From NCBI GenBank assembly GCA_025450075.1, contig JANWIC010000016.1, positions 2,005 to 66,004 on the forward strand: a stretch of 64,000 nucleotides of DNA, given 5' to 3'. This DNA is from Patescibacteria group bacterium (lineage in GTDB: Bacteria; Patescibacteriota; Dojkabacteria; JAKAPS01). The first letter of the stretch is position 1; the number at the start of each line of letters is the position of its first letter. This document shows, in pieces, positions 13,622-59,288 of the stretch. Both the position numbers and the translations under genes were made by a program. The notes beneath the pieces are model-generated. The model did no database searches, was not told the origin of the DNA, and saw only the letters and a program-made list of their open reading frames with translations.

Positions 13622-13650
13622 TTGATGTAAAAGCTTTTATTGTATATACT
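13622..13650 (+). promoter_or_regulatory. Candidate promoter upstream of ftsA (TTGATG-17-TATACT). A second candidate, TTGTTC-16-TATAAT, lies at about 13562-13589.
   Basis: Hexamer spacing read directly from the 93-nt ftsQ-ftsA intergenic region. Confidence 0.3.
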
Positions 13651-13676
13651 AGAACGTCTATATAAAAATTACCTAG

Positions 13677-14957: not shown

Positions 14958-14991
14958 ACACTGCTCACACTTTTTAGATTATACTAATACG

Positions 14992-25878: not shown

Positions 25879-27372
25879 TTGAATTTCCCTATAATCCGTA
25901 CTATAATGCCATTGGCAAATGTATATAATATGGCAATCGAAGCATCCGATCAACAACATAACATCCCCGAAATGCTAATTGTTGCAATACCTGGGAGTGG
26001 TATTACAACTTTGTGTATTATCGGTCCAAAAAGAGGTGATAGTCAGTGTGAAGACGTAATTGTAAAGGCTGTAACTCCAACCGCTCATGCTTGTGGAGTA
26101 ATTGATGTTATCAGCGGAAATAGCGAGGAATATGGTGTATTCCCAGGCACTATTCTTGCAGAACATTTCAGGAATGTTGTTGGCTCATTACCCCATGGTT
26201 TTTGGCAAAATTCACCACGAGACATTCAAGCATATTTAAGAAGAGCATTTGGGGTAGCAGATAAAGACGCATATAGAAGATTTAATACAATTGATGATAA
26301 ACCAATTGAACGTGAAAAAGGATTAGTTGGTGCAGTTGGAACTTTTTTAATTTATTCTCAACTTGAGGGGAAAATTATACGTGCAGAAGTTTCGGCAGGA
26401 GATTGTAGGAGATTAACTATATATCCGTTTACTGAAAGTAATTTGTTTCTTGAAGATGGATATATAAAAGCATGCTGCAGAGAATATCTAAAAGGTATGG
26501 ATTCTGAAGAAGTTGAAGTAATAACACGCGAGTTGCAAGCTGCGCTAAATGAATACTATTACGGACAGGATAAACTTGTTCCATGGATGGAATTATCGGT
26601 AAGAAGATTTATTGCTGCGTGTAAAAAACAGGGGATAAAAGTATTCGAAGGAATTAAACTTCATGAAGATGAAAAAACAGCTATTGCAATAATGAATCAG
26701 TTATTTAAAAATAGAAATCTTGTTGAAACGGCATTCGGCTTTGGTAATATAGAAGAACGTGGAAATGTAAATGTCGAATTAATTGATCGAAATCAGTATA
26801 GATTAGAAATAATGGCATCTGACGGGTTATGGGATTTGTTTCCGGAATCATTAGTTCGCGCAGTACTCCGATCTCCTTTTAGTGTGCAAAAAAAACTCTC
26901 GCTTATCTATGAAATGATCAAAATTGAAAGAGATTTAAGAAAACGGAAAGCAAAAGATGATGATTTTGTGGTGGCAATAACTGAAATCAACCCGTATTTT
27001 AGGCCATATTTAGGAAGCGTTGATGTGCAAGAATTATTAAATCAAAGCAATATTGCATATTATCTTGATGGAATGGTTGTAGATGGTAGAACTATCATGT
27101 ATAACAGTCCTGAATATGATGGATTGGTTGCTCAAGTTATAGAAAAAAGGATACAAAATGTCGAATCAATCAATGAATTAGCAGCTGCAATTGATCGTAT
27201 AGAAATTATTCCAAGTACCTCAACTATATGGCGATTTTTAACAGCAAATGAAGTTATTAACTTAATAAAAATTGCAATAAATGATCCTAAAAGGCGTCAA
27301 GATGCAATTAATGCAATCCCACGATCTTATGGGATAAGGCAGCGTTTTATGGATTTATTAGAAATAGAGTAA
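25879..27372 (+). CDS. Hypothetical two-domain protein. The N-terminal about 320 aa show PP2C-phosphatase-like motifs (…AFGFGN…, LEIMASDGLWDLF); the C-terminal about 180 aa are unknown.
   Basis: IMASDGLWD closely matches the conserved PP2C 'SDG(L/V)WD' motif, preceded by an (R)AFG(D)-like motif. The start codon is 4 nt after the dnaE stop. Confidence 0.35.
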   Translation: MNFPIIRTIMPLANVYNMAIEASDQQHNIPEMLIVAIPGSGITTLCIIGPKRGDSQCEDVIVKAVTPTAHACGVIDVISGNSEEYGVFPGTILAEHFRNVVGSLPHGFWQNSPRDIQAYLRRAFGVADKDAYRRFNTIDDKPIEREKGLVGAVGTFLIYSQLEGKIIRAEVSAGDCRRLTIYPFTESNLFLEDGYIKACCREYLKGMDSEEVEVITRELQAALNEYYYGQDKLVPWMELSVRRFIAACKKQGIKVFEGIKLHEDEKTAIAIMNQLFKNRNLVETAFGFGNIEERGNVNVELIDRNQYRLEIMASDGLWDLFPESLVRAVLRSPFSVQKKLSLIYEMIKIERDLRKRKAKDDDFVVAITEINPYFRPYLGSVDVQELLNQSNIAYYLDGMVVDGRTIMYNSPEYDGLVAQVIEKRIQNVESINELAAAIDRIEIIPSTSTIWRFLTANEVINLIKIAINDPKRRQDAINAIPRSYGIRQRFMDLLEIE

Positions 27373-36404: not shown

Positions 36405-37130
36405 ATGAGTAGTAATGGAGAAGATTTTGGTCAAGATGAAAGAGATCTTTTAATGGACTGTACACATCAAGCAGAAGAAATCATTCGATCTTTTCCTCTT
36501 TGTAACTTGCCCTTTAATTCTTTAGTATTTACAAACTGCTCTGGTGAAAAGATTAAATTTACAAGAGGTAAAGATTCTATTAGAATTCTAATTACAGATT
36601 CTAACGGTCAAGAGAAGGTAAAATTCATAACTTCTACAAAGAATAAACTTCCAATTGTAGCCATAGGAGATGAAGATGTTTTATCCAAAAACCTTGAAGC
36701 ACTTCAAAGCTACTTCTCACGTGACAATAGGATTACAGATTATACAGGCTTACTACCCTTAGATTTTATTCCATCGATTGAAGTAGAAAACTGTGAAGAA
36801 ATTGAAACTGATGAAACCATTATAATTGCAGCACATTATGCATATATGATTGCCTTGCACATTGGGAAAAGGGATGGATATTGTATGCGAATTCCAGGCA
36901 CTTATCAAACAGTAGTATTGCAAAAAATTAACGAAAGATTTGAATTAAAGTTACAAACTTCTGATAAAGTAACTTTGGCAAAGATTGCGTTTTCATTAAA
37001 AGATAATATTATTTGTTCTTTAAATGGTGAGGGAGATATAAATGCCCTATATGAAATATTGGATGATGCTTTAGTATTAAGGATATACTTAGGAGTAAGT
37101 TTAGGCAGAGATGAAATTAATAGAAATTAA
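36405..37130 (+). CDS. Hypothetical cytoplasmic protein (241 aa), first of a tandem pair of unknowns
   Basis: ORF track; no signal peptide and no recognised motif. Divergent from the atp operon. Confidence 0.4.
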   Translation: MSSNGEDFGQDERDLLMDCTHQAEEIIRSFPLCNLPFNSLVFTNCSGEKIKFTRGKDSIRILITDSNGQEKVKFITSTKNKLPIVAIGDEDVLSKNLEALQSYFSRDNRITDYTGLLPLDFIPSIEVENCEEIETDETIIIAAHYAYMIALHIGKRDGYCMRIPGTYQTVVLQKINERFELKLQTSDKVTLAKIAFSLKDNIICSLNGEGDINALYEILDDALVLRIYLGVSLGRDEINRN

Positions 37131-37147
37131 CTATTAGTAATCAAACT

Positions 37148-37858
37148 ATGGGAGAGATTTGTAGTCAAGAATTAGATAATTTAAATTCATGGGAAGCAGC
37201 TGCAATGCAAGGTTTTAAAATATATAACCAAATGAATAAACCCGGTTGTATTGGTACTATTGTGCTACAGGTTCCAGATGCTGAAAGAATAATAACGATT
37301 ACATTAGAAGAAAATCAAGTATATAGTATCATTACCGAGCCTCAAGAAAATAATACGACGTTATTAGTATTTCAATCAAATGGAGTTTCATTTAGTCTTG
37401 TAGAATATGGAGGAAATTTAACAGAATTGCTAGGTGATCTAAAAGAAATAATGACAGGACTTACTTCAACTCCACAACAAGTAAGGAGAAATTCTTTAAG
37501 TGGTCGAGATTTAGATAGAAGAAGGAATCTAAAAAGAGCAATTGCATTAGCAAATAATGCATATTACGCAATAGAGGCATATTCCCTTTTATGGAAGGAA
37601 CATCATGATTGGCCAATTGATTTCCCTTATCTTAAAGGTAAAATACAATTCAGCAATCTTGATAATACGTACAGAATATCATATATAGTAGATGGAAATA
37701 TAGAAGCTTTTTTTGCATTTACAGCTTTTGACAATATCACAGATATGAAAGGTATTCGATTAGGAGAAATATATGGAAATACTGCGGCCATTGAAATTGC
37801 TGTTCATTATTTGTTTGATCAAATATATAATGGTGTCTTAAAGCCATCACTAAATTGA
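37148..37858 (+). CDS. Hypothetical cytoplasmic protein (236 aa), second of the tandem pair; possibly a distant paralogue of the first
   Basis: ORF track; similar length and a loosely similar central segment (IAAHYAYMIALHIG vs ALANNAYYAIEAYSLL). Confidence 0.4.
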   Translation: MGEICSQELDNLNSWEAAAMQGFKIYNQMNKPGCIGTIVLQVPDAERIITITLEENQVYSIITEPQENNTTLLVFQSNGVSFSLVEYGGNLTELLGDLKEIMTGLTSTPQQVRRNSLSGRDLDRRRNLKRAIALANNAYYAIEAYSLLWKEHHDWPIDFPYLKGKIQFSNLDNTYRISYIVDGNIEAFFAFTAFDNITDMKGIRLGEIYGNTAAIEIAVHYLFDQIYNGVLKPSLN

Positions 37859-38656
37859 TTACAAGTTAATCCCTTGTTCTTCTAGCAGTTTTTTCATTTG
37901 ATAACGATATGCCCTGCCAATTTCAATTTGTCTTCCAGCACTTGTTTTAATATTTATCCTGATTCCCATTTTCCCATCAGATAAAGATTCAAGTCCTAAG
38001 ACTTCAGTTTTTCCTAATATAAACGGCTTTGTTTTTTCTTCTTGTTCAATATTTTCACCTGCTTGCTGCATTATGGAAATTATTTGATCAACTGGATTGT
38101 TTGCAGAAATGATAAATGTCATATCAAACATTGACCAATCTTTACTCAGGTTTGTAATTTGCGTGATGGAGCTATTAGAAAATGTAGTGACATTTCCAGA
38201 CAAATCACGGATTGTAATAGTTCGAAGGGTAATATCAATAATTACACCGACAAGCAGCCCAACCTGTACGGTATCCCCTACCCCAAATTGGTCTTGGATA
38301 AGAAAGAAAAAACCTGTAATAATGTCTTTCACCAAAGATTGCGCTCCGAAAGACACAGCAAGTCCAAAAATTCCTGCACTTGCAAGAAGTGGCTGGATAT
38401 CAAAAAAATTATTGAGAAGAATAAAGAAGCCAATGATAATGGCAATTGATATTGCCAAGTTATTCTCAACTTCAATTATTGTTTGTACCCGGCGCTGGAT
38501 TCTAGTTTGCGGTTCATTCTTTTGGATTTGTTTGCGTAAATATATCTTATTTATGACAAGAGCAAATACAATACGGATAATGGAAATGATAGCAACAATG
38601 AGTGCAAGATGGATGATACTAGCTATGAATACGTTTAGTGTAAATACTTTCATTAT
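37859..38656 (-). CDS. mscS: Small-conductance mechanosensitive channel (MscS family). The start at 38656 is preferred over 38707, which overlaps mraY.
   Basis: TM3 pore-helix pattern (..AGIFGLAVSFGAQSLVKDIITGFFFLIQDQFGVGD.V) and the beta-domain motif. Confidence 0.75.
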   Translation of the reverse strand: MMKVFTLNVFIASIIHLALIVAIISIIRIVFALVINKIYLRKQIQKNEPQTRIQRRVQTIIEVENNLAISIAIIIGFFILLNNFFDIQPLLASAGIFGLAVSFGAQSLVKDIITGFFFLIQDQFGVGDTVQVGLLVGVIIDITLRTITIRDLSGNVTTFSNSSITQITNLSKDWSMFDMTFIISANNPVDQIISIMQQAGENIEQEEKTKPFILGKTEVLGLESLSDGKMGIRINIKTSAGRQIEIGRAYRYQMKKLLEEQGINL

Positions 38657-39750
38657 ATTAGTGAAATCCACAATGAAATAACAAGAAAGATCATGGAAAA
38701 GATCCAAAATCGCATAACTACCTTCTCTTCACTCCATCCTAACATCTCAAAATGGTGATGTAAAGGCGCCATTAAAAAGATTTTTTTGTCTAAAAACTGC
38801 TTTGCAAGTTTTTGTAAAATAACAGATGCAATTTCAATAATAAATATAAAGCCTGCAAACAAAAGAATAATTTCCCTGTGCAACAAGATGGCAATAGTTG
38901 CCAACATTGCTCCTAACGCAAGAGATCCTACATCTCCCATCTGAAATCTTGCCGGTTTTATATTAAAATACAAATAGGTTAAAAGAGCACCAATAGTGGT
39001 AGCACATAATTCAGCGATTCTTGGATTATTTAATTGTGTAGCAATAATCATAAAAGCTGCGTATGCACTTAATAATAGCCCTCCTGATAATCCATCCATT
39101 CCATCAGATATATTTACCGCATTTGCCATAAATATAACCATAAAAATCACAACCGGGATTAAAAATATACCGAGGTGAATATAAGTACCTCCAGGAATCC
39201 AAAGAAGTGTCCAATGGATTTTAAAGTACATCCAGAATGCAATTATGCATCCTGCTACAAACTGGACAAGCACTTTCTCATGTGGATGCAATCCTGTTCC
39301 AATTCTTGATCCGAAATGGTAAAACATTGATTTATATGCACTCCATGGAATTAACAGGGCGAAATAGAGGCGTCTAGCAGGTTTTGCATGATGCAGCGCC
39401 AGTTTGATTGTTAACCGAAGTTTTCGTACTGGTCGTTTTCTTCCATAGATATTTAACAGATCATCTAATGCTCCAATAATTGCACAAAGCGTTAATACCG
39501 ATAAAGGCAAAAGTGTATAGCTTCTTGATACATTAAAAATACTTGTGATAATTATAATTGTAAGAATAATGATGACACCTCCCATTATAGGCACCCCCGC
39601 TTTTTCCCGTCTGGAAGGAATTTGCGAGAATGTATCATCGTATTCGCCTGATCGGACAATCTTGTATTTATACAAAAGAGAAGTAATAGGAAATGTAATG
39701 ATAAATGATAAGATTAAAGAACCTAATATGTATGTGAGAAGTCTAAACAT
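38653..39750 (-). CDS. mraY: Phospho-N-acetylmuramoyl-pentapeptide transferase (MraY)
   Basis: ANAVNISDGMDGLSGG and the C-terminal APLHHHFEMLGWSEEKVVMRFWIFS are MraY signatures; about 10 TM segments; 365 aa. It lies far from ftsQAZ. Confidence 0.8.
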   Translation of the reverse strand: MFRLLTYILGSLILSFIITFPITSLLYKYKIVRSGEYDDTFSQIPSRREKAGVPIMGGVIIILTIIIITSIFNVSRSYTLLPLSVLTLCAIIGALDDLLNIYGRKRPVRKLRLTIKLALHHAKPARRLYFALLIPWSAYKSMFYHFGSRIGTGLHPHEKVLVQFVAGCIIAFWMYFKIHWTLLWIPGGTYIHLGIFLIPVVIFMVIFMANAVNISDGMDGLSGGLLLSAYAAFMIIATQLNNPRIAELCATTIGALLTYLYFNIKPARFQMGDVGSLALGAMLATIAILLHREIILLFAGFIFIIEIASVILQKLAKQFLDKKIFLMAPLHHHFEMLGWSEEKVVMRFWIFSMIFLVISLWISLI

Positions 39751-40459
39751 GTGTATTTGTTAAAAATAAAGGCCGACGGATTCCATTATCATTTACTCTT
39801 CTTCGGATTAATTCATTTGGTTGATATTTCAATCTTTCAATCTGATTCCAATCCTGATCTGTTATGGATTTAGTATCATCAGTGATTGTTATCTTCCCCA
39901 TACAAACACCTTTTCCAGTTGAGGATTGAATATATTCGATCTCAGCAACTTTCCCCCCATTTTTTTTAATTGTAGTGATCATGACGACATGTTTTCCACC
40001 TGACATTCTGATTAAATCCATTGGCTTTACCTGTGATACAGGTATCTCTTGACAGTTTATCTTTGAAGTTAAGGTATCGGCATTTAACTTTGCGGTATCT
40101 GGTTTAATTGCATACAAAACCAGCAAGAACGGATTTAAAGTGGGACGTTTAAAAAAAGATTTTGCATGTTTTTGAAGTCTTGAAAGGGTAAACTGTTCAT
40201 AAATATCAAGAACAAGTCCTGAACAGTCTATGCCAATATTATTATCTTTTAATAGTGAATATCCATCCTTTTCAGGATATATTTCCTGTAATTCATTGAG
40301 AACTTTTTGTATTTCTTCTTTTCTTCCTTTTCCTTTGTAAACTCTTCTTTTTAAAGAAATGCTTCCTTTACCGATAAAATATGGAACAGGTATAGATAAA
40401 AACCAATCACATAACTGTTGCAAATCTTGAGGGATTGTTTGCGTATCATCTTGGCTCAT
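39743..40459 (-). CDS. Cytoplasmic NlpC/P60-family cysteine peptidase/amidase (papain-like fold) with an N-terminal about 70-aa extension
   Basis: Catalytic Cys motif GIDCSGLV, a His region KPMDLIRMSGGKHVVMI about 75 aa downstream, no signal peptide. It is the last gene of a three-gene minus-strand operon. Confidence 0.6.
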   Translation of the reverse strand: MSQDDTQTIPQDLQQLCDWFLSIPVPYFIGKGSISLKRRVYKGKGRKEEIQKVLNELQEIYPEKDGYSLLKDNNIGIDCSGLVLDIYEQFTLSRLQKHAKSFFKRPTLNPFLLVLYAIKPDTAKLNADTLTSKINCQEIPVSQVKPMDLIRMSGGKHVVMITTIKKNGGKVAEIEYIQSSTGKGVCMGKITITDDTKSITDQDWNQIERLKYQPNELIRRRVNDNGIRRPLFLTNTHV

Positions 40460-41829
40460 GCGGTATCAATAGTTTTTGTTTTTGCCTGTATTGTTGCAAT
40501 AATGTTGAGGATATTATCATCAATATGTTCCATATCTTTTAATACATTTCCTCTTACACTTATCTTTAAAAAGTCATCTCCTTGCCCTATCATTCTACCC
40601 TCAATAGCCTCCAGTATCAATGCCCTTGATGTTGAATATATTTCATCAATTGCGTAGGCATCTTCCTTTTTTGTTACAGATTCAATATCGTAAAGTCCTC
40701 CATATGATTCAAGAACCTGGAATGGTTTTGCATGATTTCTTACAATTAATGCTGATGCATCAATGGGTTGCGCATTATTCTTGTTATATTGTTCGATATC
40801 AATTGAAAATGGAATCTGTAAAAGTTCTAATAAATTGATGACTGCTAATGGAATCTCTTCATTTTCCAGCTGTAGTTTTGTGAAATCCTGGATGGATGCA
40901 GTTTGTCTTGCATTTATCTCAAGAATATATAACTCTTCTCCGGTAATGGAAAAATCAACTCCAAAAAATCCTCTATACCCTAACGTATAGAAATATTCCC
41001 CTAACAGTTTCGTCAATGCTACTGCCTCTTCTCTTATCTGATCAGTAACTCCCAGTTGATACCAATTGTTTCCGCAAGTTTCTCCCCGAAGAGCTCCAAG
41101 TTCCTGTAAACCCGTCATCTGGTTACACAATCCACCCACATAGGTGCCGTTTATTGTTGCAACACCATTTGTTGTGATGAAATGAAATGCGCATGTTTGG
41201 ACAAACTTCATCATCATATTTGTACGAAAATATTCATTCTTGAATGTATCAAACTCTTCTTTCGAATGAATAAAGAATGTGCTATTTCCAGAATGTCCAA
41301 CATCGAACTGGACAACAAAAGATGAACCCAACTCTTTGACTAATGAGTCAAAATCTACTTCAGAAATACGTTTTAAAATTGCTTTCGGCAGATTATCTCC
41401 AAAGCCACCTTCTTGAAGAAGCTGGTATTGGGTGATTTTGTTTTCAATTTTTCCTGCAATTCTTGCATCCGGATTAAGAACAATATTATCTCCTGAAGCA
41501 ACTTCTAAAGCTCTTGAAGGTTTGAAATACATGAGGTGGGCTTTGTTTCTTGTGTTTTTAGTAATATATTCCTGCACTTTCGAATCTTTTATCAGTTGCA
41601 AAGATGAGGAAAGCTCTGGTTGGGTAAGCATTACTTCTATTCCTCTTTCTTCAAGAAGACGAATTGTGTATGAGTTTTGTCCTGTGATGATATAAAAATG
41701 TCTAAGAAGATTTTCCAATCCAAAAGATCTTTCAATATTTTTTGTCAGATAAAAGATTGGCGAGCCAAGTGTCGCTTTGTTTATCATTTCTATATATTCT
41801 CGTATCATTATATTCCGGTTAAAATACAA
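40456..41829 (-). CDS. ATP-grasp family carboxylate-amine ligase (457 aa, with an N-terminal pre-ATP-grasp region)
   Basis: ATP-grasp C-terminal signature ..YILEINARQTASI.. and the upstream Gly-rich/phosphate-binding region (FVVQFDVGHSGNSTFF). It overlaps both neighbouring genes. Confidence 0.6.
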   Translation of the reverse strand: MYFNRNIMIREYIEMINKATLGSPIFYLTKNIERSFGLENLLRHFYIITGQNSYTIRLLEERGIEVMLTQPELSSSLQLIKDSKVQEYITKNTRNKAHLMYFKPSRALEVASGDNIVLNPDARIAGKIENKITQYQLLQEGGFGDNLPKAILKRISEVDFDSLVKELGSSFVVQFDVGHSGNSTFFIHSKEEFDTFKNEYFRTNMMMKFVQTCAFHFITTNGVATINGTYVGGLCNQMTGLQELGALRGETCGNNWYQLGVTDQIREEAVALTKLLGEYFYTLGYRGFFGVDFSITGEELYILEINARQTASIQDFTKLQLENEEIPLAVINLLELLQIPFSIDIEQYNKNNAQPIDASALIVRNHAKPFQVLESYGGLYDIESVTKKEDAYAIDEIYSTSRALILEAIEGRMIGQGDDFLKISVRGNVLKDMEHIDDNILNIIATIQAKTKTIDTA

Positions 41830-42734
41830 ATGGCAGAATGTATCTCATGATTTTTCTTTGCTTCTTTTAAACCTGCAATTGCTAGGGCACTATCATATGA
41901 TATTTCTTTTTTCTCAAAAGAAAGCATATCTTCTAACGCATCTTGTATCTGGTTATCACGGATTGCATAAGCATCTCCCCCGGTTCGCTTGATTAATTCA
42001 ACCACTTTTTGTTCGTGTGGAGTATAGTATGTTGATACTGCTGTTGCAAGAGAAGAATCAGTTGAAATAATCTCATGTGAAAAATGGTCAGCAATTGGAT
42101 GGATCTTAGTCGTTTGAATGGCATAAAGTGGAGGAATATCATCAAGTCCTGCAACTAATCCTAAAAGTCCAGTCCCTGAACTTATGGGCATACATAAAGC
42201 ATCAACATTTTGAGGCAATTGTTTTTGTATTTCTTTCCCTAAACTTGAATATCCCTCTATGGCATTCGGGTCTTTTGATCCCACAAGATTAATCGCTTGA
42301 TTCTCTTTTGCAAATTGAAAGGCATCTTTTCTTGCGCGTGGAGAATAATGAATTGTGCACAAGTCAGTATGCGTCCCTATTATTTCCAATAATCTTTTCC
42401 TTTTATTTTCATCGGTATGAGAAGAAAGGAAAATATCAAGATATACACGATAAAAAATACAATACATTGCTGCAGATATTGCTGCATTTCCCGATGAAGA
42501 TATGACAAAATTATTTTTCCCTTCTTTGATCCAGTGTTGAAGTTGATAGGAAATGGCTCTATCTTTAAAAGATCCTGAAGGGTTTTGTGTCTCATCTTTT
42601 AAATATATATGATTCAAACCATATGCATGTGCAAGATTGACCGCCTCGTAAAGAGGTGTGTTCCCTTCAGCTGGTAAAGGGAGAGATTGAAAATTATTCG
42701 TAAAGTGTGTAGAATTACTACTATTGTTGACCAT
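41808..42734 (-). CDS. PLP-dependent enzyme, fold type II (Trp-synthase-beta / threonine-synthase / cysteine-synthase superfamily)
   Basis: PLP-lysine motif ..LKDETQNPSGSFKDRA.. preceded by GNTPLY; a glycine-rich loop ISSGTGLLGL; 308 aa. Confidence 0.7.
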   Translation of the reverse strand: MVNNSSNSTHFTNNFQSLPLPAEGNTPLYEAVNLAHAYGLNHIYLKDETQNPSGSFKDRAISYQLQHWIKEGKNNFVISSSGNAAISAAMYCIFYRVYLDIFLSSHTDENKRKRLLEIIGTHTDLCTIHYSPRARKDAFQFAKENQAINLVGSKDPNAIEGYSSLGKEIQKQLPQNVDALCMPISSGTGLLGLVAGLDDIPPLYAIQTTKIHPIADHFSHEIISTDSSLATAVSTYYTPHEQKVVELIKRTGGDAYAIRDNQIQDALEDMLSFEKKEISYDSALAIAGLKEAKKNHEIHSAICILTGI

Positions 42735-42760
42735 TATTTCGTATTATACAATTTTTACCT

Positions 42761-42931
42761 ATGAAAGACAAAACAGTTTTATGCCCTGAATGCCAAAATA
42801 CCACAGAACTTGAAAATGAAATTCGAGTTGGTGACATCGTTGAATGTCCTCATTGCGGATCAGAACTTCGGGTCGCTGATTTTGATTCTGATGGAAAGAT
42901 CCTTGTAAAGGTTATCCAGGAAGAGAAATAA
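42761..42931 (+). CDS. Small (56 aa) 4-Cys zinc-ribbon protein with an acidic C-terminal tail, LysW/ArgW (amino-group carrier protein)-like. It is not in the supplied ORF track because it is shorter than 60 aa.
   Basis: Own translation: MKDKTVLCPECQNTTELENEIRVGDIVECPHCGSELRVADFDSDGKILVKVIQEEK. The CPEC..(E.LEN.E)..V.C..CG.EL.V layout parallels my recollection of Thermus LysW. It is divergently transcribed from the PLP/ATP-grasp/NlpC-P60 operon. Confidence 0.4.
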   Translation: MKDKTVLCPECQNTTELENEIRVGDIVECPHCGSELRVADFDSDGKILVKVIQEEK

Positions 42932-43012: not shown

Positions 43013-45775
43013 TTGGGTCATATTCAACCGCAAATAGCACAGATGGAAACACAAGCAATTCCAGAAGGAATGCTTTACGGTACCTCTACACTTCTCGAAG
43101 CATTTCTACAAAATAATGGTGTTGGAACACTTCCAGTTTTTATTTTAGCAGCAGTACAAGCTGGCATAGTTAATTCTGAAGAAGAAGGTATACGCCGTGC
43201 AGTTGAAATTCTATCTCGATTTCAACCCAATGTTGATGTTTTAACTAAATACGGCTCACACTATAGTGATAACTGGCATCCACAAGGTGTTCGAGAATTA
43301 ATTAATACGATACATAGAAGAGAAGGTGAAAAAGTCCTCTATCCTCAAATTATTGCTTCAAGGGTTGGAGCAATTTCCCATGAATGTATTGCCAATTTGC
43401 TCACAGGTAATCTTGCACAATATCCCTCTCCTATTCAAACATCCCACATGCAATCAGAACTTCCAGGATTTGAATCTTTAAAATGTAATAGCATATTTGA
43501 TAGTAATCCAAATATATATGAGGATGCAATAACTAGAAATAATTCTGTATCCGATAAACATTTAGAACTTATTAATGATCATCGCCTTGCAATTCTTGCT
43601 GCGCTTTCTATATCTCCTCCTGATTATTGGAGAGCGAATGAAGCAGCTCGAGAATTAGCTTATCTTCTTATGCCAATATTCCATATTGTAAATAGAAAGC
43701 AGAAAAATCCTATTCAAGAAATACTTCGTCTTACCCATTCATTGGGAGGTATGCTCCCCAGTGTCATGATGAATCTTGCGAATGCCGCTGTTGCATATTA
43801 TGGCACTGATGCATTTAGAATCCCTCGAGCAATATTTGCCGAAGTACCTGTTTTATCGCAGCCAGGTGTTCGTGCGGGTAGAGCAGATCTAGTTGAGGTT
43901 GTTGCAATCAATGGACGTAAGCCTTCTTCTTCCGAAATAGAGCTAATTCGAGCATTTGCAAAAACAGCACGCGGATCGCTAGGATCTATTCATCAAAAAC
44001 TTAAAGAATTGCTCGGTGCGGATATCACATGGGAAATTTCTGACAATAAGTTTGCAATTGGTGATAACAATCCTCGATTCCGTCATCTTGCAATTCCTCG
44101 GGATGCAATAGCAAATGGGCCATTTGGTAAACACGAAATTCAAGTTAAAGCATATCATACTTTAGCAACTGTTGATGTTGCGATGGTATTAAACGATATG
44201 GAAAATCCATTCGGTAATGGTGCAATTAGTTGTGTACATCTACTTTATCGAATTGGAGATACCCTAGATGAAGCTGAAAAGATTACTTTTCAAATGAGTT
44301 CAGAAGAAATGCGAGAGTTTTTCAGAATTCATTATGGTAATCGACATAGTCGTGCAGAGCTTGAAGCTGTTTTTCGCATGTGGGGAGGTGTATTGCTTGC
44401 TGAAGCAAGAAGATATCTTGGTGTAAGTAATATTGTTAGACGTCCTAAGGAGAGCCCTGAATCAACAGGTCAAATGCCACTCATTAATGATGAAACTACT
44501 GGGAAATTTACAAGATTAATTGAAGAATCTCGTGAATTTTATCATCCTGAGAAATTAGAAAGACTTTTTCGTATTGAAGGGAGAAGAAGAAGCGGTGAAC
44601 CTAAATTGGTAATGGATTATAATTTGCTACTCCAATTAATTGTAGCTGGGAAAATTCAAGTGAGTGAAGATTTCGGTCCTTTAATAGGCGGCTTTATCCA
44701 TTGTCCACTTCATGAATTTGTACTTGCCGATCAAGGTTTACCACCTAAACTTGATGAATCTCCTTCATTTCATATTTTTGGCAATGGAAGATGGCATTGT
44801 TTTAGTTGTAATGCAGGAGGATCTATAGATCCTACTTCATTTCCTCCAGGTTGGAAAGGTGGAACAATTAAAGTTCGTACAAGAAAATCAAAAAGACAAC
44901 ATGCAATTACAAATGAAATGTTGGATGAAAGTCAAGTCGCTGTTTTGAATGATCTTTTTTTGATTCTCCAAGAGATATATAAATCCTCTACAAATGCACA
45001 AAACTATTTACAAGAAATCAGAGGATTAACTCCTGAGATATTAGCAAAATATGGAGTTGGATATTGGCCACCTGGTGCTCAGGGAAAAATATTAGAAAAG
45101 CTGATTGAGCAGGGATATACAATGGAGGATATTGATCGTGCAGGAATTAGGGTGCTTGTAAAACCAAAAAGATATAGAGATGAGGAGGGAAATGTATTTA
45201 CTTCTACCCCATACTATTGGTTTCCACTTAATGGTACAGTAGTTTTTAAGATCGGAGATGGTAAGGATGGTGATATGAATTTGTATGGAAGGAATGCATA
45301 TAAGACGCCAAAATCTTTATGGAGAAAAAATCCAAGAACTGGAAAGCCACAAAGGCCACGCGAACATTGGAAACTACAAACAAAAGTTCCTCATGGAGTA
45401 TTTAATCAACAAGTACTTAATGGCGAAATAAAATCAAAAAAAGTTGTCGTATTTGAAGCCGTAATTGATGCGTTGTCATATATGATTTTAACTGGAGAAG
45501 AAGATGTAGTAGCTATCATTGGTACACTAAATCATTATGCAGTAAGAAAGCTAAAAGATCTTGCATTACAAGGTGTACAAATTTGCCTTGCACTGGATAA
45601 CGACAGTACCGGGCAACTGACGATAAAACGGATTATTGCTGAATTAGAATCTTATGGGTGTGGAGAAATGGTATTTAATTATACTGAAATTTTAAAACAG
45701 CTTTTTCAAGAGCTTTCTTCTTTGAAAGATTTAAATGAGGTCCTTCTATTCCGAATTCAAGATCGACGGTCTTGA
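43013..45775 (+). CDS. Large (920 aa) protein. The C-terminal about 370 aa form a DnaG-type primase core (CHC2-like zinc finger plus TOPRIM); the N-terminal about 550 aa are an uncharacterised domain.
   Basis: Zinc-finger segment CPLHEFVLADQGLPPKLDESPSFHIFGNGRWHCFSCNAGGS (compare DnaG CPFH.E.TPSF.V.....YHCFGCG..GN); TOPRIM Glu (VVVFEAVIDALSYM) and DxD (CLALDNDSTGQ). It appears GC-richer than the flanking genes. Confidence 0.6.
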   Translation: MGHIQPQIAQMETQAIPEGMLYGTSTLLEAFLQNNGVGTLPVFILAAVQAGIVNSEEEGIRRAVEILSRFQPNVDVLTKYGSHYSDNWHPQGVRELINTIHRREGEKVLYPQIIASRVGAISHECIANLLTGNLAQYPSPIQTSHMQSELPGFESLKCNSIFDSNPNIYEDAITRNNSVSDKHLELINDHRLAILAALSISPPDYWRANEAARELAYLLMPIFHIVNRKQKNPIQEILRLTHSLGGMLPSVMMNLANAAVAYYGTDAFRIPRAIFAEVPVLSQPGVRAGRADLVEVVAINGRKPSSSEIELIRAFAKTARGSLGSIHQKLKELLGADITWEISDNKFAIGDNNPRFRHLAIPRDAIANGPFGKHEIQVKAYHTLATVDVAMVLNDMENPFGNGAISCVHLLYRIGDTLDEAEKITFQMSSEEMREFFRIHYGNRHSRAELEAVFRMWGGVLLAEARRYLGVSNIVRRPKESPESTGQMPLINDETTGKFTRLIEESREFYHPEKLERLFRIEGRRRSGEPKLVMDYNLLLQLIVAGKIQVSEDFGPLIGGFIHCPLHEFVLADQGLPPKLDESPSFHIFGNGRWHCFSCNAGGSIDPTSFPPGWKGGTIKVRTRKSKRQHAITNEMLDESQVAVLNDLFLILQEIYKSSTNAQNYLQEIRGLTPEILAKYGVGYWPPGAQGKILEKLIEQGYTMEDIDRAGIRVLVKPKRYRDEEGNVFTSTPYYWFPLNGTVVFKIGDGKDGDMNLYGRNAYKTPKSLWRKNPRTGKPQRPREHWKLQTKVPHGVFNQQVLNGEIKSKKVVVFEAVIDALSYMILTGEEDVVAIIGTLNHYAVRKLKDLALQGVQICLALDNDSTGQLTIKRIIAELESYGCGEMVFNYTEILKQLFQELSSLKDLNEVLLFRIQDRRS

Positions 45776-47181
45776 ATGGCAATAGATTGGGAAAATGGAT
45801 GAATCAATGGTCCGTTCATTGTGGGTATGTAAGGATTTTGCCAAAAGCTAATTATCCTTTTCCTGCGAAGAAATTCAACAACAAATAGCATCATTTCTAG
45901 CATTGCAACTTTTTCTCCTACACAGCTTCTTGACCCCCCTCCAAATGCAGAGAACGGTGGTTCATATCTTTTTCCGTGAGGATGTGTAGTTAGTCTTTGC
46001 TGATACCTTTCAAAATGAAATGAATCTGGATCAGGATAATATTCCTGCATTCGCTGTGTTCTACCAGGCATTAAAAATACAAGTGTCTTTTCGGCTACCC
46101 GATATAACTGAATTGATCCATCTTTGGTATCTACTGGAATAATCATTTCATGTATTGTTTTTCTAGGAAGAGGTGAAACTTGGGGATGGAGACGTAGCGT
46201 TTCATGAATGCATGCTGCAAGTGTTGGCAAATTTGCCAGTGAGTCAGGAGTACATGGTTCACCTGGATGATATTTATCTTCTATTTCTCTTTCTAAATGG
46301 TGATATGCATCAGGATGCCTTTCAAGTTCCTTAAATAAAAATGTTAAAGTATTTGTTGTCGTATCATGGGCAGCATAAATTACCATTAGCAAATTATTTA
46401 TGATTTCTTCATCTGTTAATTTCCGATTCTGTTCAAAGGGATACTGAACTTGCATTAATTGGCCAAGTATATCATCCTGAGGTGGCATTTCTCTTCTTTT
46501 ATCAATAATTCCTTTAAGGATCTCTACGAGCTTTTCACGAGATTGCATTGCATAGCGGTATGGTAAAAGCGGATTATTTGGTTGTCTAAAAATATCGAAT
46601 GCTGCAAGAGAAAAGGAATGCCAAAGTTTTTTCAACTTTGCAACAAGTAACTTATCTTCTCCTTCTGTTGAAAGTGCAAGATAAATTGCATATTTGAACG
46701 TAATATCTTGCGCAAGTTTCAAAATATTTACTCTTCCGGAAAGTGAAGTGAAAGCTTCAGCCATACATTGAAGAAGAAAATTACAATCTTCCTGTTGAAA
46801 TTTTCTGGGAGTGAGTCTTTCCAATACTGCATGTCGCAATTGGTCATGTATTTCTCCATCAGAAGTCAGTACACCTTGTGGAAACATTTCTCTTGCAATA
46901 ATATGGTATCCCCCACCTTCTCCAAAGATAAAATCGGATGAGTGAGTCAGAACGTACTTTTCTGCTTCTGCACCTAATAGAACTAGCGCAGGTTCTCCAT
47001 CGATCCAGTTGACCCAAAATGCATTACTTCCAGATTTTTCTTGTAATGAGGCTGGAAAACTATTTGGCCTTGCAATTAATTGATAAAATTGCAAAAAAGA
47101 GAATAAATCATGGCAAAAATTTGGAGCATCTCTCGCATCTAATGGACCTGTTTGAGTGAGCTGTTCGTTATCTTCATACAT
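45757..47181 (-). CDS. Cytochrome P450 monooxygenase
   Basis: Heme-thiolate loop FGGGSRSCVGEKVA, I-helix AAHDTT, ExxR (ETLRLHP) and PERF-like FHFERY; 474 aa. The 3' end overlaps the primase-like gene by 19 nt (convergent). Confidence 0.88.
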   Translation of the reverse strand: MYEDNEQLTQTGPLDARDAPNFCHDLFSFLQFYQLIARPNSFPASLQEKSGSNAFWVNWIDGEPALVLLGAEAEKYVLTHSSDFIFGEGGGYHIIAREMFPQGVLTSDGEIHDQLRHAVLERLTPRKFQQEDCNFLLQCMAEAFTSLSGRVNILKLAQDITFKYAIYLALSTEGEDKLLVAKLKKLWHSFSLAAFDIFRQPNNPLLPYRYAMQSREKLVEILKGIIDKRREMPPQDDILGQLMQVQYPFEQNRKLTDEEIINNLLMVIYAAHDTTTNTLTFLFKELERHPDAYHHLEREIEDKYHPGEPCTPDSLANLPTLAACIHETLRLHPQVSPLPRKTIHEMIIPVDTKDGSIQLYRVAEKTLVFLMPGRTQRMQEYYPDPDSFHFERYQQRLTTHPHGKRYEPPFSAFGGGSRSCVGEKVAMLEMMLFVVEFLRRKRIISFWQNPYIPTMNGPLIHPFSQSIAIQDRRS

Positions 47182-54045: not shown

Positions 54046-55470
54046 TTGGTATCTGCTATGTCAAAGTTTTTACGTGAAAAAATTCAACTAATTCTTGCTC
54101 TGATGCTAATCTGCTCAGTAATTGGCTTTTCATTAGCAGGGACACCGCATGGTCATGTGAAAGGAGCAAGCGCACTTTCCATCCCATTTGTCGCATCTAT
54201 TGATACGATGAAAGAAAGTAGAGATACTGAAACGTTTCCACTTACATTTACACAGATTGCGGATGATGTGAATCTTTCATCTTCACTGTATGCCAACTAT
54301 ATCACAGTTGATACTCATTGGGATTATCCTAATTACGCACTTTCCTGGGTAAAAGCGATTCGCGCTGCAGGAAAACATGTTTGGTTTCGTATGGCTCCAA
54401 ACCAATGGGAGAATAATAATGGTGTAACAGGAATAATGACTCCAAGTGCATATGAGAGTGCCCTTCAAACCTTTATCACATCTAATCCAGGACTTTTCCA
54501 ATCAGGCGACATTTTCGATCCTTGTCCTGAACCGGAAAATGGGCATTATTGGGTAAGTACATATGGATCTCAATGGAGCTGGCATGCTCCAAATGCAGCT
54601 ACTGCAGATTTTAATCAATTTATCCGTACGACATCTGATGTTGCCGACAGTGCATTTAACCAAATCGGAGTACATGGAGTAATCACATCTATTCGATCTA
54701 CCAATTCATTTTTTGCAACGCATCCGGAAGATTTAGAGCAGGCAACAGTTGATAAGTTTGGTCTGATTACTTTTGATTCCTATCCGGAAAGTACCACAAC
54801 TGATCCTGCAACAGCAACGAATTTACGCATTTCGGAAATCCAGCAAGTAGAAAATACCTGGCATGTGCCAATTGTACTCGGAGAGGTCGGGTATAGCAAT
54901 GCAGTTGCAGTAGATGATGTAACACAAGAATCTGTTGTTAAAGCAGAACTACAAGGTATTGCGGCTCTCCCATATATTATTGGAATGAACTATTGGGTTG
55001 GGGCGGGAACAAACAATTCGGGAGGATATACCCATATCTTTGCCGGAAGTAATGGGAACTGGTCTCTTCGTCCAGCAGCAGCAGATGTCGCAAGTTTTTA
55101 CGCTTCACAACAGCCTGTTGTCACTTCTGCTACACCTCCAATTACTCAAACAATTCCCGACATTACTGCTCCTCAATCACAATTAACATTAAGCCCCCCT
55201 ATCACTCCAAGTATTAAGAATAAGGTTGAAACCTCAACAGCAATACCTCCTACAATTTCTCCCTCCATTGTTGCAACTATTCTTCCCTCTCCACAGATAA
55301 CGGAGAAACCGGTTCAAAAAGTGCAATTAACGGGAAAGAAAAAAGCTAAAATCATTACTAAACATAATCACAAATTTACCACAGTTCAGGATGTACAAAG
55401 TTTTGAAGAATCCTTTCTTGGAAATATCCTCCATATGATAGAATCAGTATTGACCAATGGAACGAAATGA
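54046..55470 (+). CDS. Secreted/anchored protein: N-terminal signal/TM, a TIM-barrel-like putative glycoside hydrolase domain (candidate nucleophile in PIVLGEVGYS), and a Pro/Thr/Ser-rich C-terminal region
   Basis: N-terminal hydrophobic segment; GEVG-type motif typical of clan GH-A nucleophiles; low-complexity P/T/S stretch (TPPITQTIPDITAPQSQLTLSPPITPSI..). Confidence 0.35.
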   Translation: MVSAMSKFLREKIQLILALMLICSVIGFSLAGTPHGHVKGASALSIPFVASIDTMKESRDTETFPLTFTQIADDVNLSSSLYANYITVDTHWDYPNYALSWVKAIRAAGKHVWFRMAPNQWENNNGVTGIMTPSAYESALQTFITSNPGLFQSGDIFDPCPEPENGHYWVSTYGSQWSWHAPNAATADFNQFIRTTSDVADSAFNQIGVHGVITSIRSTNSFFATHPEDLEQATVDKFGLITFDSYPESTTTDPATATNLRISEIQQVENTWHVPIVLGEVGYSNAVAVDDVTQESVVKAELQGIAALPYIIGMNYWVGAGTNNSGGYTHIFAGSNGNWSLRPAAADVASFYASQQPVVTSATPPITQTIPDITAPQSQLTLSPPITPSIKNKVETSTAIPPTISPSIVATILPSPQITEKPVQKVQLTGKKKAKIITKHNHKFTTVQDVQSFEESFLGNILHMIESVLTNGTK

Positions 55471-59262: not shown

Positions 59263-59288
59263 CAAGAAAGTTATATTTTTCTTTCTTG
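59263..59288. terminator. Inverted repeat CAAGAAAG-(10 nt)-CTTTCTTG between convergent genes; a possible bidirectional terminator that overlaps the last codons of the minus-strand gene
   Basis: 8-bp perfect stem read directly; there is a T-run in the loop region. Confidence 0.3.

What the first reader, a model, noticed from the sequence alone, without database searches (positions are those of the whole stretch)
39743..42931. Three-gene PLP-enzyme / ATP-grasp ligase / cytoplasmic NlpC-P60 amidase operon with a divergent LysW-like zinc-ribbon gene
Three genes overlap each other and read on the minus strand as a unit. First is a PLP-dependent fold-II enzyme (GSFKDRA). Second is a 457-aa ATP-grasp ligase (YILEINAR). 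Third is an NlpC/P60 papain-fold amidase (DCSGLV...GKHVVMI) that lacks any signal peptide, so it is not a secreted peptidoglycan hydrolase. A 56-aa 4-Cys protein with a Glu-rich C-terminus is transcribed divergently, 26 nt from the PLP gene.

This architecture makes and breaks an amide bond: a ligase plus an opposing papain-fold amidase, as in the bifunctional glutathionylspermidine synthetase/amidase where a CHAP domain is fused to an ATP-grasp-like synthetase. The PLP enzyme could supply a non-standard amino acid or a beta-substituted product. If the zinc-ribbon protein is a LysW/ArgW-type amino-group carrier, the ATP-grasp would be a LysX-like ligase working on a protein-tethered intermediate. 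NlpC/P60 enzymes typically cut gamma-glutamyl amides, so this one would be the releasing hydrolase. That would be a non-canonical variant of carrier-protein-mediated amino-acid or metabolite biosynthesis, in a lineage where it is not described.

Alternatives are a gamma-glutamyl-conjugate (polyamine or thiol) synthetase/amidase cycle, or a link to the CapA-like gene at the window end.
Basis: partly seen in the sequence, partly recalled or inferred. Interest (0 to 1): 0.78.

Follow-up and report, generated by a model that had tools for sequence, protein, structure and literature searches.

The report
Cell-wall gene module with LysW-like protein
A small zinc-binding protein that always ends in lysine, a vitamin-B6 enzyme, an ATP-driven ligase and a cytoplasmic peptidase form an uncharacterised gene set that sits among the cell-wall genes of hundreds of ultra-small (CPR) bacteria and may stand in for the usual enzymes that make the D-Ala-D-Ala end of the wall peptide.

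Summary
A 56-aa LysW-like zinc ribbon is divergent, 26 nt away.

The set is conserved in about 85 other loci, nearly all Patescibacteria/CPR. It lies among peptidoglycan genes (MurB, MraY, MurC/E/F, Fem-like, FtsW, MurG), in some lineages inside a complete dcw cluster.

It is not a LysW/LysX system:
- All 53 small proteins end in Lys, not Glu.
- The ligase is PylC/PurK/L-amino-acid-ligase-like, not RimK/LysX-like.
- No LysZ/Y/J/K genes occur nearby.

The peptidase is a canonical C40 fold, closest to MepS, AvPCP and YkfC. It also occurs in three related loci that lack the other three genes. Those three are the only loci with canonical ddl: two intact, one an alr-ddl deletion remnant.

Best reading (about 0.35): the zinc ribbon, PLP enzyme and ATP-grasp are a non-orthologous alternative to Alr plus Ddl, or otherwise supply a stem-peptide building block just before MraY. 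The peptidase would be a general cytoplasmic wall-peptide peptidase. The chemistry at the invariant C-terminal Lys is unresolved. I found no description in the searched literature.

The parts
42761..42931 (+). LysW-like zinc-ribbon protein: 56 aa, 4 Cys, net charge about -6, tail ...VIQEEK with an invariant C-terminal Lys
   Evidence: Pfam PF21344 gives 44.3 bits against a cut-off of 27. The best PDB matches are LysW 5k2m_E (E 3.8e-5) and 3wwl_A. Homologues lie beside the PLP gene in 53 of 57 loci and all 53 end in K, against 10.6% of background small ORFs. It is called as a gene in NCBI.
42735..42760 (.). 26-nt divergent intergenic gap between the zinc-ribbon gene and the PLP gene
   Evidence: Sequence read. 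A promoter-like hexamer pair for the minus-strand operon spans 42771-42743 (consensus match only).
41808..42734 (-). ThrC-like fold-II PLP enzyme, 308 aa; PLP Lys57 in NPSGSFKDR, carboxylate loop SSSGNAA
   Evidence: Pfam PALP 164 bits. The best NCBIfam hits are ThrC models, at 63-91 bits against cut-offs of 167-421. A family profile matches threonine synthases 2zsj/6cgq best (E 1e-35). By that alignment the ThrC phosphate-binding Arg and the GNAGN loop are replaced.
40456..41808 (-). ATP-grasp ligase (450 aa from the ATG at 41808; the ORF extends to a TTG at 41829); three-domain PylC/PurK/L-amino-acid-ligase type with an extra C-terminal beta domain
39743..40459 (-). Cytoplasmic NlpC/P60 (C40) cysteine peptidase, 238 aa; Cys79-His157 plus a third polar residue (Gln in the window, His in most); family-specific N-terminal helical region with PYY...GKGxPEEI
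38653..39750 (-). MraY (phospho-MurNAc-pentapeptide transferase); overlaps the peptidase gene by 8 nt, so it is in the same operon
   Evidence: TIGR00445 gives 199 bits against a cut-off of 192. MraY lies within 700 bp of the peptidase gene in 33 of the 41 loci that hold both.
37859..38707 (-). MscS-like channel gene at the operon tail; probably not part of the function
   Evidence: Pfam MS_channel_2nd 53.6 bits. It follows MraY only in the closest relatives, L001 and L007.

Best explanation
This is a conserved module of peptidoglycan-precursor synthesis, typical of Patescibacteria/CPR-like bacteria. It is co-transcribed with MraY.

The trio (LysW-like protein, ThrC-like PLP enzyme, PylC/L-amino-acid-ligase-type ATP-grasp) most likely takes the place of alanine racemase plus D-Ala-D-Ala ligase. 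The PLP enzyme would make the D- or otherwise non-standard amino acid. The ATP-grasp would form the amide bond of the unit that is added to the end of the UDP-MurNAc-peptide before MraY acts.

The acidic LysW-like protein would be the obligatory protein partner. Its flexible tail ends in an invariant Lys, and ...Glu-Lys-COOH has the same end as a stem tripeptide. The tail is either the covalent handle on which the amino acid is held (an amide at the Lys epsilon-amine or alpha-carboxylate), or it is inserted into the PLP enzyme's active site as the SAT tail is inserted into CysK.

The NlpC/P60 protein would be a cytoplasmic peptidase for peptides that end in Lys/DAP(-D-Ala), of gamma-D-Glu-diamino-acid or L,D-carboxypeptidase type. 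It is shared with relatives that keep Ddl.

Shown: gene content, folds, catalytic residues, conservation, genomic context, and alternation with ddl in the sampled loci. Inferred: every chemical step.
For: 1. Context. MraY is in the same operon in the window. Across 86 non-redundant loci, the peptidase gene lies next to MraY in 33 of 41. A Mur, MraY or MurB gene is present in 43 of the 62 loci with at least 8 genes. In nine loci the four genes sit inside a full dcw cluster: RsmH-FtsI-MurE-...-MurA-MraY-[NlpC-ZnR-PALP-GRASP]-FtsW-MurG-FtsA-FtsZ.

2. Alternation with ddl. A search with E. coli DdlB, Alr and MurI over 1.03 Mb of these loci finds canonical Ddl in only three: L047 (MurF-Ddl-MraY), L057, and L050 (a deletion remnant holding Alr residues 2-101 plus Ddl residues 237-305). 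These three have the peptidase but no ATP-grasp, PLP enzyme or zinc ribbon. None of the roughly 69 ATP-grasp loci has Ddl within 8 kb. In an MraY tree the Ddl-type loci are interleaved with ATP-grasp-type loci.

3. Same enzyme classes as Alr plus Ddl: a PLP enzyme and an ATP-grasp. The ATP-grasp's nearest structures include dipeptide-forming L-amino-acid ligases and PylC. The best PDB sequence hits to the ATP-grasp profile include 7r8p, deposited only as an 'ATP-grasp domain-containing protein' (SAOUHSC_02373), and BesA.

4. Partner protein. It is LysW-like and acidic. It is adjacent to the PLP gene in 36 of 39 loci, and 53 of 53 copies end in Lys.

5. ATP-grasp and peptidase are adjacent in 50 of 65 loci and fused in one, L051.

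6. MurF in three ATP-grasp-type loci scores below the TIGR01143 cut-off (223-249 against 288.6). MurF in Ddl-type locus L047 scores above it (296). This is weak evidence.
Against: - Only three Ddl-type loci were found, one of them a remnant. Whole genomes could not be read, so ATP-grasp-type genomes may carry ddl or alr elsewhere.
- The PLP enzyme is much closer to threonine synthase (125 bits) than to fold-II racemases (59-72 bits). No ThrC-like alanine racemase is known.
- A simple racemase-plus-ligase pair needs no carrier protein, so the best-conserved and oddest feature, the C-terminal Lys, is not explained by this reading alone.
- ATP-grasp paralogues occur without the other genes (L003, L016, L034).
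- A protein-lysine-methyltransferase-like gene inside the operon in 16 loci has no role in this scheme.
Confidence: 0.35

Rival explanations
1. A true carrier-protein pathway. An amino acid is ligated by the ATP-grasp to the C-terminal Lys of the LysW-like protein. Alternatively the Lys itself is the cargo: alkylated on its epsilon-amine by PLP beta-replacement, methylated in some lineages, clipped off by NlpC/P60 and replaced by the ATP-grasp. The product would be a non-standard (di)amino acid for stem position 3 or for the cross-bridge.
Against: The peptidase also occurs without carrier, PLP enzyme or ATP-grasp in the Ddl-type loci, so it is not a dedicated release enzyme. No kinase, reductase or aminotransferase genes are present. 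The residue before the Lys varies (E, G, M). A PLP enzyme cannot act on an amino acid whose alpha-amine is in an amide bond.
Confidence: 0.2
2. Salvage or editing of wall peptides. The cytoplasmic NlpC/P60 (YkfC- or LdcA-like) cuts imported or recycled stem peptides. The ATP-grasp re-ligates pieces. MurC/Mpl-like ligases attach them to UDP-MurNAc. The PLP enzyme and zinc ribbon only supply or regulate.
For: The fold is closest to MepS (also an L,D-carboxypeptidase), AvPCP and YkfC. A cytoplasmic NlpC/P60 recycles DAP in Chlamydia (PMC9928106, listed; title and abstract only). Neighbouring MurC genes score almost equally on the mpl model. CPR bacteria are amino-acid scavengers (own knowledge). 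ATP-grasp and peptidase are adjacent and once fused.
Against: It gives no role to the LysW-like protein or its Lys. It does not explain the alternation of the trio with ddl. No peptide transporter recurs in the neighbourhoods.
Confidence: 0.15
3. A regulatory device with no covalent metabolite carrier. One version: the tail Lys plugs the PLP enzyme's active site, as the SAT C-terminus plugs CysK. The other: the terminal Lys is removed by the papain-fold peptidase and put back by the ATP-grasp, as Tyr is on alpha-tubulin (vasohibin/TTL). Either would couple wall synthesis to Lys or ATP supply.
For: The zinc ribbon and PLP gene are the tightest pair (36 of 39 adjacent). The PLP enzyme keeps the carboxylate-binding Asn loop. 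The ligase-plus-papain-fold-peptidase pair and the acidic -EEK tail parallel -EEY of tubulin (own knowledge). The terminal residue is invariant.
Against: It leaves the catalytic role of the PLP enzyme unexplained. The peptidase exists without the small protein. No precedent exists in bacteria.
Confidence: 0.1
4. A canonical LysW/LysX alpha-aminoadipate or arginine pathway, or a glutathionylspermidine-type thiol/polyamine conjugate cycle, or a RiPP/secondary-metabolite cluster.
For: LysW-type ribbon. A ligase and an amidase occur together. A weak BesA hit.
Against: The terminal residue is Lys, not Glu. The ATP-grasp is not in the RimK/LysX clade. No LysZ/Y/J/K, no GspS-type synthetase, and CHAP is only a distant match. 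The module is present in hundreds of reduced genomes inside dcw clusters, which is core metabolism, not accessory.
Confidence: 0.04

Closest known systems
LysW/LysX amino-group carrier protein system (Thermus, Sulfolobus, Thermococcus lysine/arginine synthesis)
   Same: A small acidic 4-Cys zinc-ribbon protein with a flexible C-terminal tail, encoded with an ATP-grasp ligase and a hydrolase. The ribbon is homologous to LysW (Pfam 44.3 bits; best PDB hits are LysW). Some tails keep LysW's DPL motif.
   Different: The tail ends in an invariant Lys instead of EDWGE/Glu. The ATP-grasp belongs to another clade (PylC/PurK/L-amino-acid-ligase type). There is no kinase, reductase, aminotransferase or M20 hydrolase. 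The partner is a ThrC-like PLP enzyme. The context is peptidoglycan, not amino-acid biosynthesis.
Alanine racemase plus D-Ala-D-Ala ligase (Alr/Ddl) branch, and VanT/VanC/VanXY-type variants
   Same: A PLP enzyme plus an ATP-grasp ligase (plus a peptidase in van clusters), located in or beside the dcw cluster next to MurF/MraY. The trio and canonical ddl alternate among related loci.
   Different: The PLP enzyme is fold II (ThrC-like), not fold III. The ATP-grasp is not a Ddl family member. An extra LysW-like protein is needed. The peptidase is papain-fold, not a zinc D,D-peptidase.
PylC and L-amino-acid ligases (BacD, RizA, BL00235, LdmS, PGM1, BesA)
   Different: Sequence identity is 9-15%. 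The CPR enzyme has its own N-domain motif (ER..G.E) and a C-terminal beta domain. Its substrates are unknown.
YkfC / AvPCP / MepS NlpC-P60 peptidases (gamma-D-Glu-L-diamino-acid endopeptidases, L,D-carboxypeptidase)
   Same: The same catalytic fold and Cys-His-polar triad. Like YkfC and the chlamydial enzyme, it is cytoplasmic.
   Different: It has a family-specific N-terminal helical region with invariant PYY and GKG.PEEI motifs. It falls below the Pfam cut-off. It is encoded in dcw clusters and is once fused to the ATP-grasp.
CysK-SAT complex and CysO-CysM-Mec pathway
   Same: A fold-II PLP enzyme that takes the C-terminus of a small partner protein into its active site, either as regulator or as nucleophile. 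A protease then releases the product in the CysO system.
   Different: No sequence relation of the partner (zinc ribbon against SAT tail or ubiquitin fold). The terminal residue is Lys, not Ile or Gly-Gly. Activation would be by an ATP-grasp, not an E1-like adenylase.

Membership tests
LysW/LysX amino-group carrier system | LysW-type zinc-ribbon globular domain | tested here: met
   PF21344 gives 44.3 bits against a cut-off of 27. The best PDB hits are LysW 5k2m_E and 3wwl_A. NCBIfam LysW models give 30-35 bits, below their cut-offs of 53-75.
LysW/LysX amino-group carrier system | C-terminal Glu (EDWGE-type tail) whose gamma-carboxylate carries the substrate | tested here: not met
   All 53 homologues end in Lys. 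The residue before it is E, G or M.
LysW/LysX amino-group carrier system | RimK/LysX-clade ATP-grasp ligase | tested here: not met
LysW/LysX amino-group carrier system | Partner genes LysZ (kinase), LysY (reductase), LysJ (aminotransferase), LysK (M20 hydrolase) | tested here: not met
   None appears among the recurrent neighbour families in 86 loci.
LysW/LysX amino-group carrier system | Covalent loading of the carrier by the ligase | not testable with these tools
   This needs mass spectrometry of the small protein. Multimer modelling was not available.
NlpC/P60 (MEROPS C40) | Papain-like fold with a Cys-His-polar catalytic triad | tested here: met
NlpC/P60 (MEROPS C40) | Secreted cell-wall hydrolase (signal peptide) | tested here: not met
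   There is no hydrophobic N-terminal segment in 42 family members. It is cytoplasmic, like YkfC.
Threonine synthase (ThrC) | Passes curated ThrC models; phosphate-binding residues for O-phosphohomoserine | tested here: not met
   Scores are 63-91 bits against cut-offs of 167-421. In the alignment to 2zsj the Arg of NPYRIEG is Ala, and the GNAGN loop is SSGT. The PLP Lys and the fold are conserved.
D-Ala-D-Ala ligase (Ddl) | Sequence membership in the Ddl family | tested here: not met
D-Ala-D-Ala ligase (Ddl) | Functional role: makes the dipeptide substrate of MurF; encoded in the dcw cluster | tested here: inconclusive
   The dcw location and the alternation with ddl are seen. The activity and genome-wide absence of ddl could not be tested.
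Glutathionylspermidine synthetase/amidase | CHAP amidase fused to a GspS-type synthetase | tested here: not met
MraY | Passes the TIGR00445 equivalog cut-off | tested here: met
   199 bits against a cut-off of 192.

The most novel reading that the evidence does not exclude
A LysW-type carrier protein has been recruited to cell-wall synthesis. In much of the CPR radiation, the D-aminoacyl end of the peptidoglycan stem (or another stem building block) would be made on, or with, a small zinc-ribbon protein through its invariant C-terminal Lys. A ThrC-derived PLP enzyme and a PylC/L-amino-acid-ligase-type ATP-grasp would do the chemistry, replacing alanine racemase and D-Ala-D-Ala ligase. That would be a protein-assisted step in a pathway thought to use only soluble small molecules.
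Probability: 0.25. Interest if true: 0.9.

Novelty: new variant of a known kind. Interest (0 to 1): 0.8.

Why it matters
Peptidoglycan precursor synthesis is among the best-mapped and most drug-targeted pathways in bacteria, and it is taken to be uniform. Here a conserved, unnamed gene set sits between MraY and its neighbours. The peptidase alone forms at least 625 protein clusters, all 'hypothetical'. The set occurs across Saccharibacteria, Dojkabacteria, Paceibacteria-type lineages and the unclassified lineage of this window.

If it replaces Alr/Ddl or adds a new step, three things follow:
- It changes how CPR cell walls, and their sensitivity to D-cycloserine or glycopeptides, should be predicted.
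- It extends the LysW carrier principle beyond amino-acid biosynthesis, and to a Lys-ended carrier.
- It gives a ThrC-derived enzyme a new reaction.

The question is directly testable by complementation and by mass spectrometry of a 56-aa protein.

Tried and rejected
- **Canonical LysW/LysX pathway:** rejected on the tail, the ATP-grasp clade and the missing partner genes.
- **GspS-like synthetase/amidase:** rejected; CHAP is only a distant match.
- **Bona fide ThrC, CysK, SbnA or IlvA:** rejected by curated cut-offs and by active-site differences inferred from alignment.
- **Split ThrC-like enzyme with an N-terminal zinc ribbon:** among the best 150 of 3380 relatives, the longer proteins show no Cys-ribbon extension.
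- **Biotin-carboxylase/PurK-type bicarbonate activation (Lys to DAP carboxylation idea):** the motif after the Mg ligands is EINARQTAS and, judged from my memory of the BC and PurK motifs, lacks the BC Glu/His and the PurK His-Asn-Ser-Gly-His. This rests on sequence inspection of A5. Kept only as a remote idea.
- **Link to the PGA_cap gene at 62910-63860:** that gene is 20 kb away and never recurs.
- **Peptidase as the dedicated release enzyme:** weakened, because it also occurs with Ddl and without the trio.

Steps that led nowhere:
- The word-indexed protein search found only 9-10 ATP-grasp relatives.
- The first alignment was too divergent for locus finding.
- The AFDB fold library was unavailable.
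- Ten literature searches found no description of this gene set.
- The Iyer et al. 2009 amidoligase paper was not held.
- The organism name could not be recovered.

Full report
**1. Observation**

- 41808-42734(-) encodes a 308-aa fold-II PLP enzyme: Pfam PALP 164 bits, PLP lysine in NPSGSFKDR.
- 40456-41829(-) encodes an ATP-grasp protein: ATP-grasp_3 31.7 bits, above its cut-off.
- 39743-40459(-) encodes a 238-aa NlpC/P60-like protein: 19.8 bits, just under Pfam's cut-off of 23.
- 42761-42931(+) encodes a 56-aa 4-Cys protein that passes Pfam's Zn_ribbon_LysW model: 44.3 bits against a cut-off of 27.

The PLP gene's stop overlaps the ATG of the ATP-grasp (TAATG). That ATG, at 41808, is the start used for the 450-aa NCBI product P0001. 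ATP-grasp and NlpC/P60 overlap by 4 nt. The divergent gap is 26 nt.

The NlpC/P60 gene overlaps by 8 nt a gene that passes the MraY equivalog model (TIGR00445, 199 bits against 192). An MscS-like gene follows.

**2. It is a conserved unit, and it belongs to CPR-type bacteria**

The word-indexed protein search found only 9-10 relatives of the ATP-grasp. Their contigs already showed the same order: zinc ribbon (divergent), PALP, ATP-grasp, a 230-260-aa protein.

A pattern scan of species-representative genomes gave 32 loci. Nearly all are from Patescibacteria MAGs: Dojkabacteria, Saccharibacteria, Nomurabacteria, Magasanikbacteria, Colwellbacteria. A metagenome scan with the peptidase profile gave 49 more.

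Counts over 86 non-redundant loci:

| Gene or pair | Loci |
|---|---|
| Peptidase | 80 |
| ATP-grasp | 69 |
| PLP enzyme | 57 |
| MraY | 42 |
| ATP-grasp adjacent to peptidase | 50 of 65 |
| Zinc ribbon adjacent to PLP gene | 36 of 39 |
| Peptidase within 700 bp of MraY | 33 of 41 |

ATP-grasp and peptidase are fused in one locus (L051, 623 aa). The peptidase family alone has 625 clusters at 90% identity. All are unnamed or 'hypothetical protein'.

The window's own proteins are singletons from an 86.7-kb NCBI contig without a name. Its closest relatives are L001 (51% identity) and L007, an unclassified 'bacterium' MAG. L007 is syntenic with the window from RNR through NrdR, DsbD and Wzy_C to the cassette, MraY, MscS and ATP synthase.

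**3. The small protein**

- It is a real LysW homologue. Its best matches among solved structures are LysW of Thermococcus and Thermus (E 3.8e-5 and 3.9e-4), aligned over the ribbon only.
- It is strongly acidic, with net charge -6 to -17.
- In one lineage the tail keeps LysW's 'DPL' motif.
- The tail is different from LysW. All 53 four-Cys small ORFs found within 2.5 kb of a PLP gene end in Lys. The tails are EEEK (24), DEGK (9), [IV]EEK (8), DMMK/EMMK/DMIK (4) and others. Only 10.6% of background small ORFs end in Lys.
- Only the terminal Lys is invariant. The residue before it can be Glu, Gly or Met.
- Six or seven Dojkabacteria loci have a longer ribbon variant with the same ending.
- LysW chemistry uses the gamma-carboxylate of a terminal Glu. 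That defining feature is not met.

**4. The ATP-grasp**

- An AlphaFold model from 11 sequences has pLDDT 90.4.
- These rank above Ddl (18.7), RimK (16.8-17.5), LysX/ArgX (17.1, 16.5) and graspetide ligases (12-14).
- The only sizeable curated hit is NF005096, named 'biotin carboxylase', at 129 bits against a cut-off of 684.
- So this is a three-domain ligase of the group that joins an amino-acid or bicarbonate carboxylate to an amine. It is not a LysX.
- About 100 C-terminal residues form an extra beta domain with no match.

**5. The PLP enzyme**

- A family profile matches threonine synthases best (2zsj and 6cgq, E about 1e-35). Threonine dehydratases, serine and aspartate racemases, SbnA and CysK/CysM follow at 48-79 bits.
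- All curated ThrC models are missed by a wide margin.
- The PLP lysine, the EGNTP motif and the carboxylate loop SSSGNAA are conserved.
- By alignment, the Arg that binds the substrate phosphate in ThrC is Ala, and the PLP-phosphate loop GNAGN is SSGT.
- So it acts on an alpha-amino acid with a free amine and carboxylate, and probably not on O-phosphohomoserine.
- A full HMMER scan of 1.84 billion representatives gives 86 relatives at E<=1e-30. The longer ones carry no zinc-ribbon extension, so the small protein is not a split-off domain.

**6. The peptidase**

- Cys79 (GIDCSG) and His157 are invariant. The third residue is His in most members and Gln in the window.
- There is no hydrophobic N-terminus in 42 members, so it is cytoplasmic.
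- By family knowledge, its relatives cut gamma-D-Glu-|-L-Lys/DAP or DAP-|-D-Ala. These are bonds next to an L-diamino acid, which is what the small protein's tail ends in.

**7. Context**

Neighbours that recur:
- MurB.
- MurC/Mpl-like, MurE and MurF ligases.
- FemAB-like and arginyltransferase/Fem-like genes right after MraY.
- In nine loci, a whole dcw cluster: RsmH, FtsI, MurE, MurC, MurA, MraY, [NlpC/P60, zinc ribbon, PALP, ATP-grasp], FtsW, MurG, FtsA, FtsZ.

Gene order is reshuffled between lineages (four arrangements), yet the set stays with Mur genes. That argues for function rather than inherited order.

CPR MurE proteins in L018 and L022 keep the Arg of the DAP-type DNPR motif (EDPR) and pass the DAP-ligase model.

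In 16 loci a membrane-anchored methyltransferase lies between the PLP gene and the ATP-grasp. Its best solved relatives are the Sulfolobus protein-lysine methyltransferase aKMT (E 9e-9).

**8. The most informative result**

I searched all 1.03 Mb of these loci and the whole window with E. coli DdlB, Alr and MurI. Canonical Ddl turns up in three loci only:
- L047: FtsI-MurE-x-[NlpC/P60]-MurF-Ddl-MraY-FtsW-MurG-FtsA-FtsZ.
- L057.
- L050, where only Alr residues 2-101 and Ddl residues 237-305 remain side by side. This is a deleted alr-ddl pair.

All three have the peptidase. None has the ATP-grasp, the PLP enzyme or a Lys-ended zinc ribbon. Conversely, none of the roughly 69 ATP-grasp loci has Ddl within 8 kb, and that includes the complete dcw clusters.

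In an MraY tree the Ddl-type loci are interleaved with ATP-grasp-type loci in one clade.

MurF of the Ddl-type locus L047 passes TIGR01143 (296 against 288.6). MurF of three ATP-grasp-type loci does not (223-249).

Two conclusions follow:
- The peptidase is not a dedicated partner of the small protein.
- The trio (zinc ribbon, PLP enzyme, ATP-grasp) behaves like an alternative to Alr plus Ddl, which are themselves a PLP enzyme and an ATP-grasp.

The sample is small (three loci, one a remnant). I could not read whole genomes, so this is a lead, not a proof.

**9. Mechanism**

Shown: folds, catalytic residues, the invariant Lys, operon structure, peptidoglycan context, and the alternation with ddl in the sample.

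Inferred: the trio supplies the D-aminoacyl unit, or another stem-peptide building block, used just before MraY. The PLP enzyme would make the unusual amino acid and the ATP-grasp would make the amide.

The small protein is an obligatory partner through its terminal Lys. I cannot decide between two modes:
- A covalent handle. PylC and D-aspartate ligase are precedents for ATP-grasp ligation to a Lys epsilon-amine. LysW, RimK and TTL are precedents for ligation at a protein C-terminus.
- Tail insertion into the PLP active site. The CysK-SAT complex is the precedent, and CysM-CysO is the precedent for a protein C-terminus acting as nucleophile.

I put the Alr/Ddl-replacement reading at about 0.35. 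The broader claim that this is a peptidoglycan-precursor module I put at about 0.8.

Rivals are a carrier pathway to a new (di)amino acid (0.2), peptide salvage (0.15), a regulatory Lys switch or plug (0.1), and the canonical LysW, GspS or RiPP readings (0.04 together).

**10. Novelty**

Ten full-text searches found no paper describing this gene set. All database names are 'hypothetical', 'ATP-grasp domain-containing' or 'amidase domain-containing'.

The parts are known folds and the carrier principle is known. The combination, the Lys-ended LysW homologue, and its place in the dcw cluster are new. I file it as a new variant of a known kind. If the protein-assisted route is real, it would count as a new step in a textbook pathway.

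Noticed in passing
window 43013-47181: A 920-aa DnaG-like protein has a roughly 580-aa unmatched N-terminal region, with Toprim and primase core only at the C-terminus. A cytochrome P450 gene sits beside it. Together they occupy the slot where the syntenic relatives L001 and L007 have MurB. P450 is unusual for a small-genome, CPR-like organism.
   Followed up: partly
L005:7496-8005, L040:8023-8538 and 14 other loci: A 170-aa protein with an N-terminal membrane helix and an aKMT-like protein-lysine methyltransferase domain is inserted between the PLP gene and the ATP-grasp in Saccharibacteria and Dojkabacteria. Its target is unknown. It could be the invariant Lys of the small protein.
   Followed up: partly
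L051:6870-8738: A single 623-aa ORF fuses the ATP-grasp (residues 102-294 matched) to the NlpC/P60 domain (377-597), directly upstream of MraY.
   Followed up: partly
L050:5716-6253: An alr-ddl deletion remnant: only Alr residues 2-101 and Ddl residues 237-305 are left. It lies between MurF and the NlpC/P60 gene in a CPR dcw cluster.
   Followed up: yes
L003:8001-9500 (GCA_017880035.1), L016, L034: ATP-grasp paralogues occur without the PLP, peptidase or zinc-ribbon genes. In L003 the paralogue lies between PrgI/TraC-like (type IV secretion-like) genes and ParA, 6 kb upstream of MurC-MraY.
   Followed up: no
window 36405-37858: Two adjacent plus-strand ORFs of 241 and 236 aa have no Pfam match. 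They lie between the ATP synthase a-subunit gene and the MscS-like gene, in the lowest-GC stretch of the window (0.31).
   Followed up: no
window 11942-16293: The order is FolD-FtsQ-FtsA-FtsZ, with no ddl, murC or murB in front of ftsQ. No Ddl, Alr or MurI homologue occurs anywhere in the 64-kb window.
   Followed up: partly
L018:6354-6962 (also L023, L027): A protein-L-isoaspartate O-methyltransferase gene lies between the zinc-ribbon gene and the PLP gene in some Dojkabacteria loci.
   Followed up: no
window 25879-27372, 54046-55470, 59271-60158: Three sizeable ORFs (497, 474 and 295 aa) have no Pfam family at E<=1e-4.
   Followed up: no
L036 (CAZNAO010000004.1): This contig is labelled 'uncultured Gammaproteobacteria'. 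It carries the same gene order as the Magasanikbacteria locus L035 and nearly identical proteins, so it is probably mis-binned or mislabelled.
   Followed up: no
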